This document shows positions 43,184-50,959 of a DNA stretch of 64,000 nucleotides, one piece after another; position 1 is the first letter of the stretch, and each line of letters begins with the position of its first letter. A model generated the notes under the pieces. That model worked only from the letters and a program-made list of their open reading frames with translations. It was not told where the DNA came from and did no database searches. The translations under genes were made by a program, and so were the position numbers. Source of the DNA: Candidatus Poribacteria bacterium. Lineage in GTDB: Bacteria > Poribacteria > WGA-4E > WGA-3G. Where the stretch lies: positions 3,392,001-3,456,000 of the forward strand of contig CBDANF010000003.1 in assembly GCA_965197475.1 (NCBI GenBank). The letters run 5' to 3'.

Positions 43184-43654
43184 TTAGGTAGCTGCGGCTG
43201 CATCAAGCACAGCGCGGACGATTTTATCGTAACCGGTACAGCGGCATAAATTTCCAGCCAACCAGTATCGGATTTCATGTTCCGTTGGGTTTGGATTTTT
43301 ATCAAGTAGGGCTTTTGCACTCATAATAAAACCTGGGGTGCAAATACCACACTGTAGTGCTGCGTTTTCGAGGAAGGCATCTTGGATCGGGTGCAATTTA
43401 TCTGGGTCAGCGAGTCCTTCAATGGTTTCAACAGATTTACCATCAGTTTCTACGCCGAGGACAAGGCATGAGTTAACGAGTCTACCATCAAGAATAACAC
43501 TGCATGCACCGCAGTTCCCGTTGTTGCATCCCTCTTTTGCGCCAGTGAGGTGGAGTTCATCTCTGAGGACTTCCAGTAGACTTTGCCGAGGTTCGCAGAG
43601 AAATTCTACCGCTTCGCCATTGATTGTGGTTTGAACGTGCGATTTTCTCGCCAT
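43184..43654 (-). CDS. Mo-hydroxylase 2Fe-2S subunit (CoxS/XdhC type)
   Basis: KEGCNNGNCGAC, QCGICTPG, GNLCRCTGY. Confidence 0.95.
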   Translation of the reverse strand: MARKSHVQTTINGEAVEFLCEPRQSLLEVLRDELHLTGAKEGCNNGNCGACSVILDGRLVNSCLVLGVETDGKSVETIEGLADPDKLHPIQDAFLENAALQCGICTPGFIMSAKALLDKNPNPTEHEIRYWLAGNLCRCTGYDKIVRAVLDAAAAT

Positions 43655-43699
43655 AGTATCGGTTTCCTTTCGTATTTATAGTAGATTTTTGAATTACTT

Positions 43700-43815
43700 C
43701 GGCACTCTGCAGTAGGCGTGGTTAAGAACCTTGTCTACCGCAGAGTGTCTGAGGCGCAGCATGCCACACGCACATGCTGCCTGGATTTGTCAATGAATTG
43801 CGCGACTTCAAACGC
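43700..43815. repeat. Cluster of REP-like hairpins
   Basis: GGCACTCTGC-GTAG hairpin-GCAGAGTGTC; GCAGCATG...CATGCTGC; family A copy AATGAATTGCGCGACT. Confidence 0.6.
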
Positions 43816-43855
43816 CGCAAATGCCAAGAAAATGTTTGCTTATTTTCATAATTCG

Positions 43856-44203
43856 CTATTTTAGAATAAGCATTCTACGGGTAGCCGTAAAATCGCCCGC
43901 TGTCAATGTATAGAAATAGAGACCGCTTGCCACAGGCTCACCTACGGCATTCCTGCCATCCCAATACGCAGCACGGCTCTTGGCTTGGTACATACCGGCT
44001 GGCTGCTGTCCCAAATCCAGTTTCCGAACTAAAGCACCATTCGCAGCATAGATCGTGAGTGTGACATCTGCCGGCTTCGCAAGGTGATAAGGTATCCATG
44101 TTTCGGGGTTAAATGGATTTGGATAGTTTAGCAGCAGTGCGTTTTTGACTGATTGTAGTCGGGGATTTGTGGTTGTGCCAAGATAGAGTAGTGTTTGTTG
44201 CAT
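43856..44203 (-). CDS. Stand-alone FlgD-Ig/T9SS-A-like C-terminal domain (probably a remnant)
   Basis: LLLNYPNPFNPETWIPY...YWDGRNAVGEPVASGLYFYTL...RRMLILK with no cargo domain or signal peptide. Confidence 0.7.
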   Translation of the reverse strand: MQQTLLYLGTTTNPRLQSVKNALLLNYPNPFNPETWIPYHLAKPADVTLTIYAANGALVRKLDLGQQPAGMYQAKSRAAYWDGRNAVGEPVASGLYFYTLTAGDFTATRRMLILK

Positions 44204-44212
44204 ATATACCCT

Positions 44213-44857
44213 CTATAGTGATTTTTTGACTTGCGGAAAATCTTGTGGGCATAAATTCGGTATGAAGTCACCAATAAATGTCACTATTTTTATCACTTCA
44301 TCGGGAGAAGTTTCAAACCACTTTGTCCCTTTTAATTTTCTCCCTTTATATTCCTTCCGTTTGCGCTTAAATATCTTCAGGGTTTCATGTATTTTCGTTT
44401 CCAATTCTTCGTAGTCATCATTCATTTTGATAATGAGTCCGATTGTAGGGTCTTTGAGCCATTGATCTGTTTGCTCATTAACTCTTTCCTCAACAGTACG
44501 AGCAGTTGAACCGACATTGCATAGCCAAATAGCACTTCCTTCCTGTTCTACTTGGCGGTCATAGAAAACATATACTTTTCCCTCTCCTTCTCCGAAAATA
44601 CGTTGAGATAATGGATAGATTTCCCAAATATCATTTTGTTTAGGAATCTGTTTTACATACCCCCCTGATTTCAGGCTCAACAGAACATTACTAATTACGC
44701 TATCCACGTATGTACTATCTTCAGGTGGAAGGTGCTTTTTCACTTGTTCCTCGATCTCTGTTATACTAGCTGTTCCTTTCAATTCATTTTTGATAATTTT
44801 TTTAACACTTTTTCCAACTCTACTACGATCTTCATAGGTATTCTTTGTCTCGGACAT
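44213..44857 (-). CDS. GIY-YIG superfamily (T5orf172/MUG113-like) protein with N-terminal winged-helix-like region
   Basis: GKVYVFY...NVGST.R.VEERV...LETKIH..L...KWF; AGGAG RBS. Confidence 0.65.
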   Translation of the reverse strand: MSETKNTYEDRSRVGKSVKKIIKNELKGTASITEIEEQVKKHLPPEDSTYVDSVISNVLLSLKSGGYVKQIPKQNDIWEIYPLSQRIFGEGEGKVYVFYDRQVEQEGSAIWLCNVGSTARTVEERVNEQTDQWLKDPTIGLIIKMNDDYEELETKIHETLKIFKRKRKEYKGRKLKGTKWFETSPDEVIKIVTFIGDFIPNLCPQDFPQVKKSL

Positions 44858-44874
44858 TCCATCTAAACTCCTTT

Positions 44875-45668
44875 CTATTTAAGATTGTTGAGTAAGCGTT
44901 CAATTTTATTTTTGAGTTGTACATCGCCCTCTTTCGGTACAAACTTCAATGCGGAACGCCAATCCTGTTCCGCCTCATCTATTCGATCAAGAGCTGCCTT
45001 TGCCAGTCCCCGATAGTAATAAGCCTCTGCATTATTAGCATTTTGTTTTATCTCTGCATCAAAATCCGAGATTGAGGATTCATATTTCCCAAGACAGTAT
45101 TTTGCAAAACCACGCTCATAGTAACCAAGAGCAGGCAACTTCTTACCCGCATTGAGTTTTATAGCCATATCAAAATCCGAAAGCGCAGCCTCATATTGCT
45201 TAAGGGATACTTTCACCTGCCCCCGAAGGTAGTATATATCGCCTCAGAAGAATTGAGTTTTATCGCAGTATCAAAATCCAAAAGCGCAGCCGCATAATCA
45301 CCGAGTTTTTGCTTCACTATTCCACGAAGGGTGTAAACATACGCATCATCGGGGGTAAGACAGATAACATTATCATAATCAGAAATCGCAGCCGCATATT
45401 CATTTTCTTCTTCTTTTGCAACCCCCCGCTCAAGAAGTGCTTCTACATGATCAGGATTGAGACGGATCGCAACATCAAAATCCGACATCGACGCTTTGAA
45501 TTGACATAGAAACCCCTTTGCCACACCCCGATAGTAGTAGGCTTCTGCGAAGTTAGGATCAAGACTTATAGCGGTATCATAAGCCTGAATCGCAGCCGCA
45601 TATTTATAATGTGCTGCCTCTGCTTTCCCCCGATTTAGATAGACTTGTGCTGAATTCGGAACTGACAT
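44875..45668 (-). pseudogene. TPR protein, frameshifted
   Basis: AY..RG.AK...AI.DFD.AI.LNP repeats over two frames; one added base in the (TA)n at about 45232-45239 restores EAYIYYLRGQVK. Confidence 0.8.
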
Positions 45669-45726
45669 GGTTTATCTCCTTTACTTCCATTAACAAGCTG
45701 TCCATTTTGTTATCCTTCTTGGTTTA

Positions 45727-46236
45727 TCAATCAACAGCAACTGTTTTGGATTTCAAACCACCATTACTTAACTTAATTTCCGCCTGCTTGTTAATTGACA
45801 AAGTTATCTTTTTGCCATTAGGTAGGCGCATTTCAATTTTGGGGAGGAGATCCTTTAGACTCAATGTTAGTTTTGACACGGTTTCTAATTTTCTATTGGT
45901 TCTTTTTAAATATTCAAGGTCTCTAAAGTCTCTCTTTGGATCCCCCATGATTTGTAACAATTGTGCAACGGATTCCATATCCATGAATACTATTTCATCT
46001 GGTGATAATATCAATTTATTCAGGTTTTCATCACTTACATGGACGATGTTATTATTTATGAATACATGGTCTTCGGAGTTTTCATCCCCTACAGTAATAC
46101 TTTCACTAACAATCAACTTTTTAACCCGTGCAACTTCGTCTTCAGCGTTTAGGTTATTCATGGTGCCGATAAAGTATCCGATAGACGCGATAAGCGCGCC
46201 CAGTGCCATATATGCTAATTTCTGTTTTAAAATCAT
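45727..46236 (-). CDS. Hypothetical exported/membrane-anchored protein
   Basis: GAGGAG RBS; KQKLAYMALGALIASIGYFIG N-terminal helix. Confidence 0.7.
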   Translation of the reverse strand: MILKQKLAYMALGALIASIGYFIGTMNNLNAEDEVARVKKLIVSESITVGDENSEDHVFINNNIVHVSDENLNKLILSPDEIVFMDMESVAQLLQIMGDPKRDFRDLEYLKRTNRKLETVSKLTLSLKDLLPKIEMRLPNGKKITLSINKQAEIKLSNGGLKSKTVAVD

Positions 46237-46409
46237 AGTTATCTCCTCTTATTAGTGTTATTTGTACGGGGGTTTACATCTCCCCGCAGAACGCGTCATA
46301 ATCTACTTATAGTTTGTATCAAATGACCCCATGAGTTATACTATTAGTATTCGTTAAACTAACGAGTAGATGTCCTCGGATCCCCGATAATCTATTCATG
46401 GAGGTCAAT

Positions 46410-47210
46410 ATGAACCGCAAGAAGGATACCGCTTACGGTATCACTCGGCTCGAATCCAAGAATGCCAGAGCCGCGATTATTCAGAAGATTTCAGCAGACT
46501 TTAATCTCATGCCTCTCGTTGCTGAAGCCTACTATAAACAGATTTCCACCTACTTTGAACAACACGCCGATGTGCACCTGACATCAGGGCAAATCTGCTA
46601 CGAGGCAGTCGCCGCAGAGGAACCCGCAGGTAAACATATCGCTTTAGCGAAAAAAGTTTCCTGTCGGCTAACTCTCAATGACACAAACGCCGATCTTGAA
46701 GTCTTAGCGAATTATGGTCTCGCAGGACTCAGACGGCATCGGATCCTCCGATTGACCCAAGAAGCTTATGACCAAGATGCCTTACTGAGCTACGAGGATT
46801 TAGCTGTATTATTAACCACCAGTCCTGCTACAGTCAAACGCGACATTCGACACTTGAAGCAGGATAGGTATTTCGTTATGACGCGCGGGACGAAACACGA
46901 CATGGGCCCCGGCACTTCTCATAAAACCCAGGTCCTGGAGTTATATTTCAAAGCCTATACCTTCACCGAAATCGAGAAAAAGACGAACCACAGCGAACGA
47001 GCTGTCTACCGCTACTTGAAAGACTTTACACAAGTCGCTACGCTCCATCATCAAGGCTTTCCTAACGCACAGATACGCCTGATCACACATCTATCTGACC
47101 GGTTGATCCGCGAGTATCTCTCACTCTATGAGGAATACCAACACACAGATCGCATGACCCAACTCCTTCACCCAGAACCTGAGGACACAAAAAAGGGGGA
47201 CCTCTCATGA
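46410..47210 (+). CDS. DUF1670-family protein A
   Basis: GGAGG RBS; EAYDQDALLSYEDLAVLL..S..TVKRD HTH, TRG..HDMG...SHK, TNHSERAVYRY. Confidence 0.8.
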   Translation: MNRKKDTAYGITRLESKNARAAIIQKISADFNLMPLVAEAYYKQISTYFEQHADVHLTSGQICYEAVAAEEPAGKHIALAKKVSCRLTLNDTNADLEVLANYGLAGLRRHRILRLTQEAYDQDALLSYEDLAVLLTTSPATVKRDIRHLKQDRYFVMTRGTKHDMGPGTSHKTQVLELYFKAYTFTEIEKKTNHSERAVYRYLKDFTQVATLHHQGFPNAQIRLITHLSDRLIREYLSLYEEYQHTDRMTQLLHPEPEDTKKGDLS

Positions 47211-48091
47211 GCAAACCTCTAACCCGCACGCAAATCAACGAGAAGAAATTCAGACGCATCAACGATAAGTCCCTACGACAGTTGCTGATCCATCGCTTTC
47301 TCAATGACTACGGGTATGACAAAGGCGAAGTCACGGCGACTGCCATTGTTGATGACATTCTCAAGACCGTTGAGGACTATTTCGTAATTACCCTCCCTTT
47401 GGAGAAACTCGCCACGGGCGACTCACTCCCTGAGGAGCGATACCTGAGTTATGGACACCTCGTTTGGATGGCTGTCCCCATTGAGGAACATCCAGAGAGA
47501 GGAAAATCCATCGTCAAAACCCGCATGAAACCTGTCATCCTGACTTACCTCGCCGCAGAGGATATTGAATCGTTTCGCAATGGCTTTACCTCCCGGCAAC
47601 TGCGGATCAATCGCTTGGTCCGCTGGTGTCATCAAGCTTATGACCAAGGGGCATTATTGACCCAACTCGACTTGGCAGTTTTGCTCAATGTCTGTGATGC
47701 TGTCGTCAGTGATTATGTCAATGAATGGCAAAAAACCACTGGAGAACTCTTGCCCACCCGTGGCAATATCCATGACTTATCGGGTGCTATTACCCACAAG
47801 AAAGAGATCATAACCCTCTATCTTCAAGCACATCTCACCCCCAGGATTGCCGCAAAGACCAAACACTCTAAGGAGGCAGTTGACCGATACATTCGCGATT
47901 ATGAGAGCGTCAAAGTCGTGCGAACCGCTACCGCAGATATTGACAAAATCTCACAGATCACCCGACTTTCTAAACGCGTCATCTCTCAATATCTCGACCT
48001 CATACCGCAGCACCAACTCCAAGCCATAGATGCAGACCTTGCCAATTCAGACTCAAACGATGAAGCCACTCACCAAGGAGAAGCCCAATGA
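47207..48091 (+). CDS. DUF1670-family protein B (paralogue of A)
   Basis: ATGA coupling; QAYDQGALLTQLDLAVLL, PTRGNIHDL...THK, TKHSKEAVDRY. Confidence 0.8.
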   Translation: MSKPLTRTQINEKKFRRINDKSLRQLLIHRFLNDYGYDKGEVTATAIVDDILKTVEDYFVITLPLEKLATGDSLPEERYLSYGHLVWMAVPIEEHPERGKSIVKTRMKPVILTYLAAEDIESFRNGFTSRQLRINRLVRWCHQAYDQGALLTQLDLAVLLNVCDAVVSDYVNEWQKTTGELLPTRGNIHDLSGAITHKKEIITLYLQAHLTPRIAAKTKHSKEAVDRYIRDYESVKVVRTATADIDKISQITRLSKRVISQYLDLIPQHQLQAIDADLANSDSNDEATHQGEAQ

Positions 48092-48158
48092 GACCCTAAT
48101 CCTATGTTCCCGACGAACTTTACTTCGCAAAACCGGGGCAGGTGCCTTGAAAATATGG

Positions 48159-48187
48159 TTGACAACCGCTACTGGTTTTGCTATACT
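48159..48187 (+). promoter_or_regulatory. Near-consensus sigma70 promoter in the element right end
   Basis: TTGACA-17 bp-TATACT with no RBS-led ORF downstream. Confidence 0.75.
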
Positions 48188-48193
48188 TTAGAC

Positions 48194-48298
48194 ACGTTTA
48201 TCGCTAAACGCATCATTTCTCAAAGAGGATGCTCGCGATCCCAACGCAACCCACTCATCAACGATCGCTGGGAAGCCAATAAACATCAGCCTTCCAGC
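48194..48298 (+). ncRNA. Candidate structured RNA from the DUF1670 element
   Basis: Four adjacent hairpins start right at the predicted transcription start. Confidence 0.45.
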
Positions 48299-48318
48299 TA
48301 TCCTATGGTCATTTGATA

Positions 48319-48463
48319 CTATTTCATTATCAACATCTTCCGCGTCGCGGTGAAGTCGCCTGCGGTGAGTGTATAGAAATAAACACCGCTTGCCACAGGT
48401 TCACCGACTGCGTTTCTGCCATCCCAATACGCAGCACGGTTTTGAGTTTGATAAATCCCAGTA
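48319..48463 (-). pseudogene. 3-prime remnant of an NYPNPFN-type C-terminal domain gene
   Basis: GIYQTQNRAAYWDGRNAVGEPVASGVYFYTLTAGDFTATRKMLIMK*, similar to 43856-43997; its TAG overlaps the element TIR. Confidence 0.8.
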
Positions 48464-48466
48464 GAA

Positions 48467-49345
48467 TTACGCTGCGTCTTTGACTCTTTGAATTGCTCCA
48501 TTAAGTGCACGTCGCGTCAGGACACCAACGAGATGTGTTCGTTGTTCGGCAGTGCCGCGCATGTCGCTAATCGGACGGGCGATAGATTGTGCGGCTTGTG
48601 ATGCTTCGTCAATAGCGGCATCAGAAATTTCTTTCCCAGCGAGAAGCGCGCTGGCTTCCTCAGCAAAGAGCGGCGTGGGAGCGACAGCACCGAGCGCAAT
48701 GCGGGCAGAGACAATCCGCTGTTTCGCATCATCTAATACGACAGCGGCACCTGCACCGACGACCGCAATATCCATTTCGTTGCGCGGGATAAATCTGAGA
48801 TAGTAGGAGCTGGAATTTTGCTGCGGTGATGGGACTTTCACAGAGACAAGTATCTCACCTTTTCCGAGTACAGTCTGTCCGGGGCCGGTGCAGAAATCTT
48901 CAACAGGTACTTCGCGTTCTCCATTTGAACCAGCGATGACACAAGTAGCGTTTAGGACAATTAGAGGCGGTATACAATCGGCAGCAGGTGAAGCGTTGCA
49001 AAGGTTCCCTCCTACCGCAGCGCGTCCCTGAATGGCGGTGCCTCCAATAATTTTGGTTGCATCTACTAAACCGGGATAAGCATCGCAAATTACATCCACA
49101 GCATAAATCTGATAGCACGGCACCGCAGCACCAAGGGTCAACCCTGTTTCCGAGTCATAGGCTAATACATTAACTTCAGGAATGGATTTGATGTCTACCA
49201 TCCAGTCTAAAGTACGTTTGCCTTCTCTCGCTTGAACGATGAGGTCCGTGCCACCAGCGAGAATTCGGGCTTGGTCACCTTTTTCATCAAGCAGTGCGAC
49301 AACTTCAGATACCGTTTTCGCAGCGATATACTCAAATGCTTGCAT
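48467..49345 (-). CDS. Mo-hydroxylase FAD-binding subunit (CoxM/XdhB type)
   Basis: LAGGTDL, GGNLCNASPAAD, RIALGAVAPTP, PISDMRGT; start at MQAFEY with AAGGAG RBS. Confidence 0.95.
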   Translation of the reverse strand: MQAFEYIAAKTVSEVVALLDEKGDQARILAGGTDLIVQAREGKRTLDWMVDIKSIPEVNVLAYDSETGLTLGAAVPCYQIYAVDVICDAYPGLVDATKIIGGTAIQGRAAVGGNLCNASPAADCIPPLIVLNATCVIAGSNGEREVPVEDFCTGPGQTVLGKGEILVSVKVPSPQQNSSSYYLRFIPRNEMDIAVVGAGAAVVLDDAKQRIVSARIALGAVAPTPLFAEEASALLAGKEISDAAIDEASQAAQSIARPISDMRGTAEQRTHLVGVLTRRALNGAIQRVKDAA

Positions 49346-49603
49346 GGCAACAATCTCCTTCATTTTAATACTGGATTATCTGTTATTTTTAATTAGATTA
49401 TACCACAAATGCGAAAAGATGCAAGTTTTTTCGTTGATGCCATACCGATCCTCTTTTTACTTTGGAAACCTACAGAATACTATACACATTTGACGTTGAT
49501 CCACATGGTTTTTTTAAAGGTATTACCCGCTTTTGCAGGCTAAAATACCAAAACGAAACTTTTTTCAAAAAAATTTGCGTTTTGCTTTATTTCGTGTTAT
49601 GAT

Positions 49604-49918: not shown

Positions 49919-50959
49919 AGACATTATAATGATTTAAATAACAGGAGTTTCATAACGCCAGGGTCTGAAGTTTAGGCGAAAATTGTGTAAACCACAATAG
50001 GTTTCCATAACTAAATCACAAAACCCTTTCTTCCAATTCCTGAGTTTATCTTTGACAATGCGGCATCTTTTGACACCACTAATCGCATGTTCAACGCGTA
50101 TGCGTATAGACGCTATCTTTCTATTGTTTTCTTTTTCTTCATTCGTCCGTTCTCTACCTCTCGGTTTTTTCTTCGGTTGAATGATGTTTATATCCGGGAG
50201 AACGAAACCCTGAAAACCGGTATCTTGGGACAATGTGCTACCCTGTGGCACACAATAGCCCACCATATCGGCTATGTGTTTGTCATGGTGTCTTCCTTCA
50301 AAAGAAGGTGTCAATAGGACGACTTTGCAGGTCTCATTGATAATCAAATTATTTTTCACTGTATGACATTTCTTTTTACCACTATAATAACCCTTTTGAG
50401 TTTGTGGGTCTTTGGGGCATCGTATCGGGCGTTCGGTGCTATCATGAAAAAAATGTTCTCCTTCTTGATTTTGAGTTGATACTTTTGATGGAGCACATAT
50501 AGGGGCGGGGTCTGTTTCCCGAGATGGCAACTCTTCAAGTTTTGCTAATGCTTTGTTCAATATTGATAAAAGCAAGTGAATCCATCTATTAGCAAGAGGT
50601 TGAGACATACCAAAGAGCGCACCCAATAGAACTTGTTTCGGAGCATCACGCAGGTAAATCAAGATAAATAGCAACATATCTTCATGGCAAGCAAAACGAC
50701 TATTTTTATAGGGTTTATATCTCCGATTTTTGCGTGGTTTGCCATCAAGGGTATGTGTTCGCATATATTCTAAAAAACAACAAGAAAAATGAGGTAATAG
50801 TTCTGTAAACTCTTCTAATGTATATCCGGTGAGGGACAGAAACGCATCAGGTCTGTCCTTGAGATCTTGAAAATTGGTCATGAGTTAACCTCCTATCGTA
50901 AGATAATAAGTCAGTATAACAGAGGTTAACAAATTTAAAACTAATTCATTATAATGTCT
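49919..50959 (-). mobile_element. IS5-family (DDE_Tnp_4) insertion sequence
   Basis: TIR AGACATTATAATGA at both ends; AAT flanks both sides (49916-49918, 50960-50962). Confidence 0.9.
49934..50881 (-). CDS. IS5-family transposase
   Basis: LTGYT..EF..L HTH, DSTERPI, YSGKKKCHTVK, QDTGFQG, RIRVEHAI..VK. Confidence 0.92.
   Translation of the reverse strand: MTNFQDLKDRPDAFLSLTGYTLEEFTELLPHFSCCFLEYMRTHTLDGKPRKNRRYKPYKNSRFACHEDMLLFILIYLRDAPKQVLLGALFGMSQPLANRWIHLLLSILNKALAKLEELPSRETDPAPICAPSKVSTQNQEGEHFFHDSTERPIRCPKDPQTQKGYYSGKKKCHTVKNNLIINETCKVVLLTPSFEGRHHDKHIADMVGYCVPQGSTLSQDTGFQGFVLPDINIIQPKKKPRGRERTNEEKENNRKIASIRIRVEHAISGVKRCRIVKDKLRNWKKGFCDLVMETYCGLHNFRLNFRPWRYETPVI

What the first reader, a model, noticed from the sequence alone, without database searches (positions are those of the whole stretch)
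46316..48319. TIR-bounded mobile element encoding only a DUF1670 paralogue pair, with no known transposase
Seen: perfect 13-bp inverted repeats (GTATCAAATGACC at 46316-46328, GGTCATTTGATAC at 48307-48319) enclose exactly two translationally coupled paralogous genes and a non-coding tail of about 220 bp. The unit faces opposite to every neighbour, its right end overlaps the TAG stop of a C-terminal-domain gene remnant, and no target duplication is visible. Known: DUF1670 has no function assigned that I know of, and neither protein shows a recognisable DDE, HUH or serine-recombinase signature. Inference: a self-mobilising element of an unclassified IS type in which the DUF1670 pair is the recombinase/transposase.
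Basis: partly seen in the sequence, partly recalled or inferred. Interest (0 to 1): 0.9.

Follow-up and report, generated by a model that had tools for sequence, protein, structure and literature searches.

The report
New insertion sequence encoding only DUF1670
This 2-kb stretch is one of about twenty copies of a jumping gene whose only genes are two related proteins of unknown function, so those proteins are probably an unrecognised kind of transposition machinery.

Summary
The unit is a 2014-bp insertion sequence (window 46309-48322). Its ends are ATAG(TTTG)TATCAAATGACC and the inverted ATAGTATCAAATGACC. The genome holds 18 full-length copies, one internally deleted copy and one 442-bp miniature, in different flanks; nine copies are 99.5-100% identical. 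Eighteen of 20 copies sit exactly on the stop codon of secretion-tail (CTD) genes, and the element's terminal ATAG rebuilds the last Lys codon and a TAG stop. A 77%-identical subfamily instead inserts into the loop of a REP-like palindrome. Both ORFs are DUF1670 under strong purifying selection (dN/dS about 0.02-0.19). No other element in the genome uses these ends. The same two-ORF layout and end core recur in a six-copy, 1.7-kb element in an Actinomycetota MAG. No catalytic fold was detected: the proteins model as multi-HTH DNA binders with an unmatched N-domain. Mobility is essentially certain. That DUF1670 is the element's transposition protein is likely, but that it catalyses the reaction is unproven.

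The parts
46304..46308 (.). TACTT: target-derived pentamer. It is the reverse complement of the original last Lys codon plus the first two stop bases (AAG TA) of the targeted CTD gene. Its last two bases (46307-46308, TT) are the left copy of the 2-bp target duplication.
   Evidence: This pentamer varies among copies that are otherwise 99.5-100% identical: TACTT in 12 copies, TATTT in 5, CACTT in 2, and one aberrant. It matches the native ends of 13 uninterrupted CTD genes.
46309..48322 (+). The insertion sequence itself, 2014 bp, from ATAG to CTAT.
   Evidence: Boundaries come from 20 copies in different flanks. Orthologous empty/occupied pairs in a sister subfamily confirm them.
46309..46328 (+). 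Left terminal inverted repeat, ATAGTTTGTATCAAATGACC.
   Evidence: The core ATC(A/G)AATGA(C/G)CC recurs at the ends of the Actinomycetota relatives.
46410..47210 (+). ORF1, a DUF1670 protein of 266 aa counted from ATG 46410. GGAGG lies at 46400-46404. An alternative upstream ATG at 46398 would give 270 aa.
   Evidence: PF07900 E 1.3e-61. Most close homologues are 264-266 aa. dN/dS is 0.06-0.17 in 27 of 28 copy pairs.
47189..47199 (+). AAAAAAGGGGG. A_AAA_AAG sits in ORF1's reading frame 12 nt before its stop. This is either a -1 frameshift site that would fuse ORF1 to ORF2, or simply the Shine-Dalgarno sequence of ORF2.
   Evidence: Sequence. The motif is conserved in the 77%-identical subfamily, and A5-6G5-6 is present in 10 of 13 distant loci. 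Indels in copies j and k lie 2-3 nt upstream of the motif, at 47187, and k is a 564-aa in-frame fusion.
47207..48091 (+). ORF2, a DUF1670 paralogue of 294 aa. Its start overlaps the ORF1 stop (ATGA).
   Evidence: PF07900 E 1.2e-60. dN/dS is 0.02-0.19 in 28 of 28 pairs. AlphaFold2 model with pLDDT 87.
48092..48322 (+). Non-coding tail and right end. It is the most conserved part of the element.
   Evidence: 8.3% of sites vary here, against about 25-30% of third codon positions. Its 70-aa ORF shows no coding pattern (variable sites 5/6/8 by codon position). The + strand folds with z = -2.6.
48159..48187 (+). Outward-facing sigma-70-like promoter, TTGACA-17 nt-TATACT with an upstream TG, ending 135 nt from the right tip.
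   Evidence: 11 of 12 consensus matches. A positional equivalent, TTGGCA-17-TATACT with TG, ends 136 nt from the tip of the G035 subfamily element, although the tails do not align.
48307..48322 (-). Right terminal inverted repeat, which reads ATAGTATCAAATGACC on the minus strand. Its ATAG supplies the third base of the Lys codon and the TAG stop of the adjacent CTD reading frame.
48323..48324 (.). TT, the right copy of the 2-bp target duplication.
48323..48461 (-). The target: the 3' remnant of a CTD (type IX secretion / FlgD_ig-like tail) coding sequence. Its open frame spans 48319-48510.
   Evidence: Pfam CHU_C E 8.2e-6. It is 74-86% identical to other CTD gene ends, against 90-97% within the element.

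Best explanation
The unit is an autonomous insertion sequence of a family not yet recognised in the curated libraries searched here. It carries only two paralogous DUF1670 genes, and these encode its transposition proteins.

Shown:
- It is a discrete 2014-bp unit with ATAG...CTAT tips and imperfect 16/20-bp terminal inverted repeats.
- It multiplies within genomes.
- It duplicates 2 bp (TT) on insertion.
- It chooses targets very selectively. In this genome it inserts between the 2nd and 3rd base of the last Lys codon of CTD-tail genes, and its own ATAG restores Lys plus stop, so the host protein is unchanged. In a sister subfamily it inserts into the loop of a REP-like palindrome.

Inferred:
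- ORF1 and ORF2, each an N-domain followed by a winged HTH, an RG-rich linker and two HTHs, bind the conserved end core ATC(A/G)AATGA(C/G)CC and the target DNA.
- They act together as a hetero-oligomer, or possibly as a frameshift fusion.
- They bring about cleavage and 2-bp-staggered strand transfer.
- The conserved outward promoter in the tail would read across a joined right-left junction into ORF1 if a circle or tandem intermediate forms.

My odds: mobile IS about 0.97; DUF1670 proteins are the element's own required transposition factors about 0.8; they also carry the catalytic site about 0.45-0.5.
For: Copies:
- The genome holds 18 full-length copies, one with a 232-bp internal deletion and one 442-bp miniature, all in different flanks. 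Nine are 99.5-100% identical.
- Both ORFs are intact in 14 of the 18 full-length copies. The ORF2 frame is open in all 18.

Selection:
- Variable sites by codon position are 18/21/81 for ORF1 and 13/7/75 for ORF2.
- dN/dS is below 0.2 in 55 of 56 pairs.

Ends and targets:
- 40 of 41 genome-wide matches to the end 13-mer belong to these copies, so no other element uses these ends.
- The 2-bp duplication is shown directly. The empty site reads GAG T7 CTTC and the occupied site GAG T6|ATAG..CTAT|T3 CTTC. A second orthologous pair agrees once the commonest empty form is taken into account, because its G026 ortholog carries a substitution. Unoccupied REP copies number 73 in G035 and 41 in G026.
- 18 of 20 copies lie at CTD stop codons, and 15 of those genes have open frames of 698-2999 aa. 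The genome has about 50 such ends but 31,204 AARTA pentamers.

Distribution:
- G035 has four copies at 99.85-99.95% identity and no Transposase_31 gene.
- DUF1670 is present in 46 of 176 genomes and 7 of 31 genera of the phylum, mostly with even match counts, from 0 to at least 15 matches.
- One Actinomycetota MAG has six copies, 99.65-99.77% identical, of a 1.72-kb element with the same two overlapping DUF1670 ORFs, a related end core and a ...CTAT tip.
- Dozens of close homologues sit on contigs of about 2.0 kb, as collapsed repeats do.
- Natural 2x and 3x DUF1670 fusions exist.

Protein conservation:
- Both paralogue families keep the same invariant RG..D.G...[ST]HK, H, RY and Y residues.
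Against: - No catalytic domain was found. Pfam and NCBIfam give only DUF1670 and HTH families. The model of ORF2 matches only HTH and winged-HTH domains over residues 128-247, with Z at most 6.4. A profile search of PDB sequences found only a designed HTH repeat. None of the 9 long homologues tested carries a known catalytic domain.
- Two closed genomes, G032 and G038, have no DUF1670 gene. They still hold elements with the same ends at CTD stop codons, carrying an Rpn/YhgA-like Transposase_31 gene instead.
- G023 has miniatures of about 460 bp; two of them differ at only a few positions in the alignment. No DUF1670 was found there, though the genome is 95% complete in 30 contigs.
- No circle or precise-excision junction was seen, but only assembled contigs could be examined, not raw reads.
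- The A-run/G-run motif can be explained as ORF2's ribosome-binding site. One relative has AAGGAGGTG at that position.
Confidence: 0.6

Rival explanations
1. DUF1670 proteins are only the DNA-recognition and assembly part of the machinery. They bind the ends and pick the target, while a ubiquitous host enzyme (a nuclease, recombinase or topoisomerase) does the cutting and joining, as host Xer recombinases do for IMEX elements (recalled).
For: The proteins model as strings of HTH domains, with no recognisable catalytic fold. No long homologue is fused to a known catalytic domain. The invariant residues of the recognition helix could simply reflect reading of the conserved end core.
Against: The same two-gene element multiplies in very distant phyla, so the helper would have to be universal. 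The N-terminal domain, with conserved acidic residues and a beta-hairpin, has no assigned role and was not excluded as a catalytic module, because its stand-alone model was poor. A 2-bp staggered duplication is typical of transposase action rather than of Xer-type recombination (recalled).
Confidence: 0.25
2. The element is non-autonomous cargo. The ends are mobilised in trans by an unrelated transposase, for example the Rpn/YhgA-like PD-(D/E)XK protein found inside sister elements, and the DUF1670 pair are passenger regulators.
For: Elements with the same ends and the same target carry a Transposase_31 gene instead of DUF1670 in G032 and G038, which have no DUF1670. G000 has one Transposase_31 gene elsewhere in the genome. 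Miniatures exist in G023 without a detectable DUF1670 gene.
Against: G035 is a single contig, 95% complete. It has four 99.9%-identical DUF1670 copies and no Transposase_31 gene. The Rpn-bearing elements are old: 83-92% alike, with several mutated end cores. They also retain fragments of ORF2 (rows G038 2471212 and 6147026), so they derive from DUF1670 elements. No other element in G000 carries these ends. Passenger genes would not stay intact under dN/dS of about 0.1 in nearly every copy. The Actinomycetota element likewise has only the two DUF1670 ORFs.
Confidence: 0.08
3. Target choice is guided by an RNA made from the conserved tail, through the outward promoter about 135 nt from the right tip, by analogy with the bridge or seek RNAs of IS110/IS1111 (recalled). 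DUF1670 would be the RNA-binding recombination protein.
For: The tail is the most conserved part of the element. A near-consensus outward promoter keeps its position in two subfamilies whose tails do not align and whose targets differ. The + strand folds with z = -2.6. RNA-library contigs cover 48166-48324, but DNA carry-over of a multicopy element is not excluded.
Against: There is no shared word of 9 nt or more between target and element in either subfamily, beyond scattered single hits. The Actinomycetota element has only about 70 nt after ORF2. No Rfam family was matched.
Confidence: 0.05

Closest known systems
IS3 family, especially the REP-loop-specific members IS1397 and ISKpn1 (recalled, not tested against sequences here)
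   Same: A short element with terminal inverted repeats and two overlapping ORFs, the first a small HTH protein. An A_AAA_AAG motif lies at the overlap with the second ORF in the -1 frame. A short target duplication is made. Insertion goes into the loop of repeated palindromes (G035 subfamily).
   Different: There is no rve/DDE RNase-H domain by Pfam and none appeared in the fold searches. The duplication is 2 bp rather than 3-4 bp. ORF2 is a paralogue of ORF1, not a catalytic domain. Frameshifting is unproven.
IS630 / Tc1-mariner (recalled)
   Same: A 2-bp target duplication at a fixed dinucleotide. End recognition by a bipartite HTH joined by a basic, AT-hook-like linker; the weak Foldseek rows include Pax paired domains.
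   Different: The duplicated dinucleotide is TT, and possibly TC in the Actinomycetota relatives, not TA. No DDE/DDD domain was found. Target selectivity here is far higher.
IS110 / IS1111 (recalled)
   Same: Highly site-specific insertion into repeated sequences, asymmetric and partly subterminal repeats, and a conserved non-coding end.
   Different: There is no DEDD transposase. A clear 2-bp duplication and true terminal repeats are present. No guide-target complementarity was found.
Integrative elements that rebuild the 3' end of their target gene, such as islands in tRNA genes (recalled)
   Same: The inserted DNA carries bases that restore the end of the interrupted gene. Here the terminal ATAG restores Lys plus TAG in 18 of 18 CTD targets.
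   Different: Only 4 bases are restored. No tyrosine or serine integrase is encoded. The element uses many paralogous target sites rather than a single att site.

Membership tests
Insertion sequence (generic definition) | Several copies with identical ends in unrelated flanks | tested here: met
   20 copies in G000, 4 in G035 and 6 in an Actinomycetota MAG.
Insertion sequence (generic definition) | Terminal inverted repeats | tested here: met
   ATAGTTTGTATCAAATGACC and ATAGTATCAAATGACC. The 13-nt core is perfect, and 40 of 41 genomic occurrences are element ends.
Insertion sequence (generic definition) | Target-site duplication, with empty sites lacking the element | tested here: met
   A 2-bp TT duplication is shown by two orthologous G035/G026 site pairs. 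Further support comes from 73 paralogous empty REP sites and empty orthologues of copy a in G052, G006 and G002.
Insertion sequence (generic definition) | Encodes its own transposase | tested here: inconclusive
   The only genes are the DUF1670 pair. They are under purifying selection, but no catalytic domain is recognisable.
PF07900 DUF1670 | Match to the Pfam profile above its gathering score | tested here: met
   208.2 and 205.1 bits against a cut-off of 25.
DDE transposases (IS3 rve, IS630, IS5 and others) | A sequence match to a DDE/rve family | tested here: not met
   No such Pfam or NCBIfam family at E up to 0.01 and up to 1 respectively. The only related hit is a 13.5-bit match to the IS1 model restricted to an HTH stretch.
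DDE transposases (IS3 rve, IS630, IS5 and others) | RNase-H-like catalytic fold | tested here: inconclusive
   Fold searches returned only HTH matches over residues 128-247. The N-domain model on its own had pLDDT 63 and a best Z of 3.1.
Serine recombinases (including IS607) and tyrosine recombinases | A sequence match to the Resolvase or Phage_integrase families | tested here: not met
   No such family appears in the Pfam or NCBIfam output. Tn3 resolvase appears only through its C-terminal HTH (Z 5.6, 44 residues).
HUH (IS200/IS605, IS91) transposases | Y1/Y2 HUH domain; no duplication; subterminal hairpins | tested here: not met
   There is no HUH family hit, and a 2-bp duplication and terminal inverted repeats are present.
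IS1/IS3-type recoding | An ORF1-ORF2 fusion made by -1 frameshifting at a slippery heptamer | tested here: inconclusive
   In-frame A_AAA_AAG with ORF2 in the -1 frame. A5-6G5-6 is present in 10 of 13 distant loci. The motif also fits a Shine-Dalgarno site, and an ATGA overlap forces the -1 frame. No protein or ribosome data are available.

The most novel reading that the evidence does not exclude
DUF1670 is a new class of transposase with none of the known catalytic folds (DDE, HUH, serine, tyrosine, DEDD). It would work as a pair or fusion of two paralogous multi-HTH modules. The family is spread across bacterial phyla and reaches Methanosarcina. It defines a new IS family that makes 2-bp duplications and picks 'harmless' sites, such as stop codons that it rebuilds and REP loops.
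Probability: 0.4. Interest if true: 0.9.

Novelty: new variant of a known kind. Interest (0 to 1): 0.8.

Why it matters
It gives a testable function to a widespread domain of unknown function. PF07900 has 982 clusters at 50% identity with E up to 1e-3, found in many phyla. It adds an IS family that curated annotation models do not recognise, so these elements are currently annotated as regulators or hypothetical proteins (names listed).

If the proteins are catalytic, they are a new transposase chemistry or fold. If they are not, this would be a rare case of an IS that borrows a host enzyme.

The targeting is unusually precise and leaves the host protein unchanged. A sister subfamily switches to a different target. 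Together these make a natural system for studying how site choice is encoded, and possibly a source of programmable insertion tools.

Practically, the element explains assembly breaks and 2-kb orphan contigs in metagenome bins of this group.

Tried and rejected
- Guide-RNA complementarity. I found no shared word of 9 nt or more between the REP target and the G035 element. There was no consistent match of 9 nt or more between CTD flanks and the G000 copies.
- Known RNA families. Only two sub-threshold chance-level Rfam rows appeared, both inside ORF2.
- Third gene in the tail. The 70-aa ORF at 48104-48316 has no Pfam hit and no coding pattern of substitutions. I rejected it.
- Defence-system or phage relation. 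PADLOC and PHROGs gave only weak HTH rows.
- Plasmid relatives. tblastn of ORF2 against the plasmid collection found no match.
- Protein atlas. It returned only DUF1670 clusters.
- Literature. 'DUF1670' and 'PF07900' each gave 0 papers. 'Poribacteria + transposase + insertion sequence' gave 4 listings, none relevant by title or abstract. '8VD6' gave 4 listings, and from the listing the first describes protein design, consistent with the PDB hit being a designed repeat. I read no paper beyond the listings. Supplements were not consulted. ISfinder could not be queried, so an existing ISfinder entry for this family cannot be excluded.
- Structure of the N-domain alone. The model had pLDDT 62.9 and the best Z was 3.1, so nothing can be concluded.
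- ORF1-ORF2 complex prediction. The tool returned 'no answer' (score 0.24, mark 0.32). This is not evidence either way.
- Reads. Only Logan contigs were available. They show the element at far higher depth than its flanks, and internal-deletion joints (46343 to 48174 and others). They show no circle or precise-excision joint, and contigs cannot show that such forms are absent. The RNA-library contigs covering the element may be DNA carry-over.
- Copy o is not a simple insertion. It shares 4.37 kb of left flank plus the element with copy n.
Full report
**What is in the window.** The 13-bp perfect inverted repeat is real (46316-46328 / 48307-48319). It encloses two overlapping ORFs on the + strand: 46398/46410-47210 and 47207-48091, with an ATGA overlap. 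A non-coding tail of about 230 nt follows. Both proteins match PF07900 DUF1670 at E about 1e-61. They are 34% identical over 193 residues. Profiles built for the two paralogue families align over 238 columns with probability 100%. NCBIfam, the library used for prokaryotic genome annotation, has no model that reaches its cut-off.

**It is a multicopy element.** DNA searches of the window's own genome (G000; 3 contigs; 92.7% complete, 7% contamination) found 18 full-length copies, one copy with a 232-bp internal deletion and one 442-bp miniature that keeps both ends. All lie in different flanks. Copies a to i are 99.5-100% identical to one another, and the other lineages are 92-97% identical. 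Of 41 genome-wide matches to the 13-mer at up to one mismatch, 40 are the left and right ends of these 20 copies. So no other element in the genome uses these ends.

**Exact boundaries and target duplication.**
- Aligning the junctions shows constant sequence from ATAGTTTGTATCAAATGACC on the left to GGTCATTTGATACTAT on the right. In the window this is 46309-48322, or 2014 bp.
- The five bases to the left of the element vary even among identical copies: TACTT in 12 copies, TATTT in 5, CACTT in 2, and one aberrant. They equal the native ends (reverse complement of AAR TA) of 13 uninterrupted CTD genes.
- The five bases after GATAC on the right are always TATTT. The first three (TAT) belong to the element, and only TT is common to both sides.
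- The decisive evidence comes from a 77%-identical subfamily in G035, which has four copies of 1999 bp at 99.85-99.95% identity. For two of those copies the orthologous site in G026 is empty.
  - In one pair the empty site reads GAG T7 CTTC and the occupied site reads GAG T6 | ATAG...CTAT | T3 CTTC.
  - In the other pair the occupied site carries two A's before and six after the element, against six in the commonest empty form of the palindrome. Its G026 ortholog carries a substitution.
- The element therefore inserts as ATAG...CTAT and duplicates 2 bp (TT).

**Target choice.**
- In G000, 18 of 20 copies lie exactly at the stop codon of reading frames ending in a secretion-tail (CTD, FlgD_ig / type-IX-like) domain. 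Fifteen of these frames are 698-2999 aa long. Three are short remnants, including the one in the window.
- The flanking CTD DNA is only about 74-86% identical between sites, so it is target and not part of the element.
- Insertion falls between the second and third base of the last Lys codon. The element's terminal ATAG supplies the third base and a TAG stop, so all 18 host frames keep their Lys-stop ending.
- A profile built from the occupied tails finds 50 such ORF ends in the genome, 18 of them occupied. The genome has 31,204 AARTA pentamers.
- Orthologues of the gene next to copy a are empty in G052, G006 and G002 and occupied in G050 and G051.
- The G035/G026 subfamily instead inserts into the loop of a REP-like palindrome, CCGAGTTTT-TTCTTC-AAAACTCGG. 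That palindrome has 73 and 41 unoccupied copies in the two genomes.
- Specificity therefore differs between subfamilies, which suggests it is encoded by the element.

**The genes are maintained by selection.**
- Both ORFs are intact in 14 of the 18 full-length copies. The ORF2 frame is open in all 18, and in copy k a 1-nt insertion fuses it to ORF1 as a 564-aa frame.
- Variable sites fall mainly on third codon positions: 18/21/81 for ORF1 and 13/7/75 for ORF2.
- Nei-Gojobori dN/dS is 0.06-0.17 in 27 of 28 pairs for ORF1, the exception being a nearly identical pair. It is 0.02-0.19 in 28 of 28 pairs for ORF2.
- The non-coding tail is the most conserved segment (8.3% variable sites), and its 70-aa ORF shows no coding signature.
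- The tail holds an outward-facing near-consensus promoter, TTGACA-17-TATACT with TG, at 48159-48187. The G035 element has an equivalent promoter at the same distance from the tip (136 nt against 135 nt), although the tails do not align.
- The scan found no promoter-like site inside the left end.
- I infer that in a joined right-left junction this promoter would read into ORF1. That is untested.

**Possible recoding.**
- ORF1 ends ...ACA AAA AAG GGG GAC CTC TCA TGA. An A_AAA_AAG heptamer therefore lies in frame 12 nt before the stop, and ORF2 is in the -1 frame.
- The motif is kept in the 77% subfamily.
- An A5-6G5-6 run lies 9-15 nt before the ORF1 stop in 10 of 13 distant loci where both ORFs were found. 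The other three are two loci with a +1 arrangement and one with ORF2 in frame.
- The indels of copies j and k lie 2-3 nt upstream of the A-run, at 47187.
- Two points weaken the case. An ATGA overlap forces the -1 frame, and the G-run is well placed to be ORF2's ribosome-binding site. One relative has AAGGAGGTG there.
- I put frameshifting at about 35-40%.
- Proteins with two or three DUF1670 modules in one chain exist elsewhere.

**Relatives and derivatives.**
- Within the phylum, DUF1670 occurs in 46 of 176 genomes and 7 of 31 genera, mostly with even match counts, from none to at least 15 matches per genome.
- Full copies at 89-92% identity occur in four congeners.
- G023 carries miniatures of about 460 bp with these ends at CTD stops. 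No DUF1670 gene was found there (95% complete, 30 contigs).
- G032 and G038, both closed and 99% complete, have no DUF1670. They contain 1.3-kb elements with the same ends at CTD stops that carry, on the other strand, an Rpn/YhgA-like gene (Transposase_31, E 1.2e-29).
- Those elements are 83-92% alike, and several have mutated end cores. They retain short fragments of ORF2 (rows at G038 2471212 and 6147026). I read them as old, non-autonomous derivatives that captured another gene.
- Conversely, G035 has four near-identical DUF1670 copies and no Transposase_31 gene.

**The architecture is not confined to this phylum.**
- A degenerate-pattern scan of species-representative genomes returned 20 loci from MAGs labelled Actinomycetota, Acidimicrobiia, Thermoanaerobaculia, Saganbacteria and Pseudomonadota. 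Several are on contigs of 2.3-2.6 kb.
- One Actinomycetota MAG has six copies, 99.65-99.77% identical over about 1.72 kb, in different flanks.
- Each of these copies has two DUF1670 ORFs with an ATGA overlap, an end core ATCGAATGAGCC (compare ATCAAATGACC here) and a right tip ...GAAACTAT. TC lies on both sides, and four of six right flanks share a similar sequence.
- Dozens of the close homologues in the large protein collection come from contigs of about 2.0 kb, as collapsed repeats do.

**What the proteins look like.**
- The AlphaFold2 model of ORF2 (77-sequence alignment, pLDDT 87) has four parts: a helical N-domain with one beta-hairpin (residues 1-125), a winged HTH, a conserved loop (LPxRGxxHDxGxxxTHK) and two further HTH units.
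- Foldseek found nothing at E up to 0.001. An exhaustive structural scan matched only HTH, sigma-region-4 and winged-helix domains over residues 128-247, with Z at most 6.4.
- A profile search of PDB sequences hit only a designed HTH repeat protein.
- The N-domain modelled alone was of low confidence and matched nothing, so its fold remains untested.
- None of nine long homologues carries a known catalytic domain.
- Both paralogue families keep the same invariant R, D, H, K, H, R-Y and Y positions. Because the end core is also conserved across phyla, these residues may be DNA-reading residues rather than an active site.

**Verdict.** That this is a genuine insertion sequence is as certain as sequence analysis allows. 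The DUF1670 pair is very probably its own transposition machinery, at least for end and target recognition. They are the only genes, they are kept intact in nearly every copy, they co-vary with the ends across phyla, and no other user of the ends exists in the genome. Whether they also cut and join DNA is open. My odds are about 0.45-0.5 for a new catalytic class and about 0.25 for a borrowed host enzyme. A passenger role or an RNA-guided variant takes most of the remainder. The closest working analogies are IS3-family REP-targeting elements and IS630/Tc1-mariner, but the tested sequence-level hallmarks of those families are not met.

**Limits.**
- G000 is a metagenome-assembled genome.
- Only contigs, not raw reads, could be laid on the window.
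- ISfinder and paper supplements could not be consulted.

Noticed in passing
window 43677-48464: The whole 4.79-kb block between coxS (43184-43654) and coxM (48467-49363) is specific to this genome. It contains a 115-aa CTD mini-ORF, a T5orf172 gene, two TPR genes, a 169-aa ORF, the IS and the CTD remnant. In G006, G022 and G002 the two cox genes are only 91-250 bp apart. The block is bounded by two CTD 3' ends in direct orientation, about 80% identical over 121 bp, which suggests it arrived by recombination between CTD sequences.
   Followed up: partly
G000:C2:1160429-1166900 and G000:C3:845183-851600 (copies n and o): A 6.4-kb segment is duplicated at 99.1% identity. It contains gltX- and glnS-like aminoacyl-tRNA synthetase genes plus a complete IS copy, and it ends exactly at the element's right tip. 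The cause could be flank transduction by the element, recombination between IS copies, or an assembly or contamination artefact.
   Followed up: partly
L035:742-1692 (G032), L036 (G038): An Rpn/YhgA-like 'Transposase_31' PD-(D/E)XK gene sits inside decayed derivatives of this IS, between its ends. G038 has 10 such genes, and 3 of them (4 Rpn-bearing elements when G032 is counted) lie within these ends.
   Followed up: partly
G035:C1, e.g. 1894822-1895424, 2032414-2033494, 3456492-3456993: The 24-nt REP-like palindrome CCGAGTTTTTTCTTCAAAACTCGG occurs 73 times in G035. Some copies form regularly spaced runs, about 159, 193 or 352 bp apart. I did not examine what lies between them.
   Followed up: no
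window 49934-50881 (-): A conventional IS5-type transposase gene (DDE_Tnp_4 E 9.4e-25, HTH_Tnp_4) lies 1.6 kb to the right of the element. It is unrelated to the element's ends.
   Followed up: no
window 44213-44857 (-): A 214-aa protein with a T5orf172 / MUG113 (GIY-YIG-like) domain lies inside the genome-specific block.
   Followed up: no
window 46343 to 48174 (joints in runs X1 and X6): Community DNA contigs contain internally deleted forms of the element. One skips 1830 bp with six other letters in between, and others skip 1918-1949 bp. Miniature derivatives therefore circulate in the sampled community.
   Followed up: no
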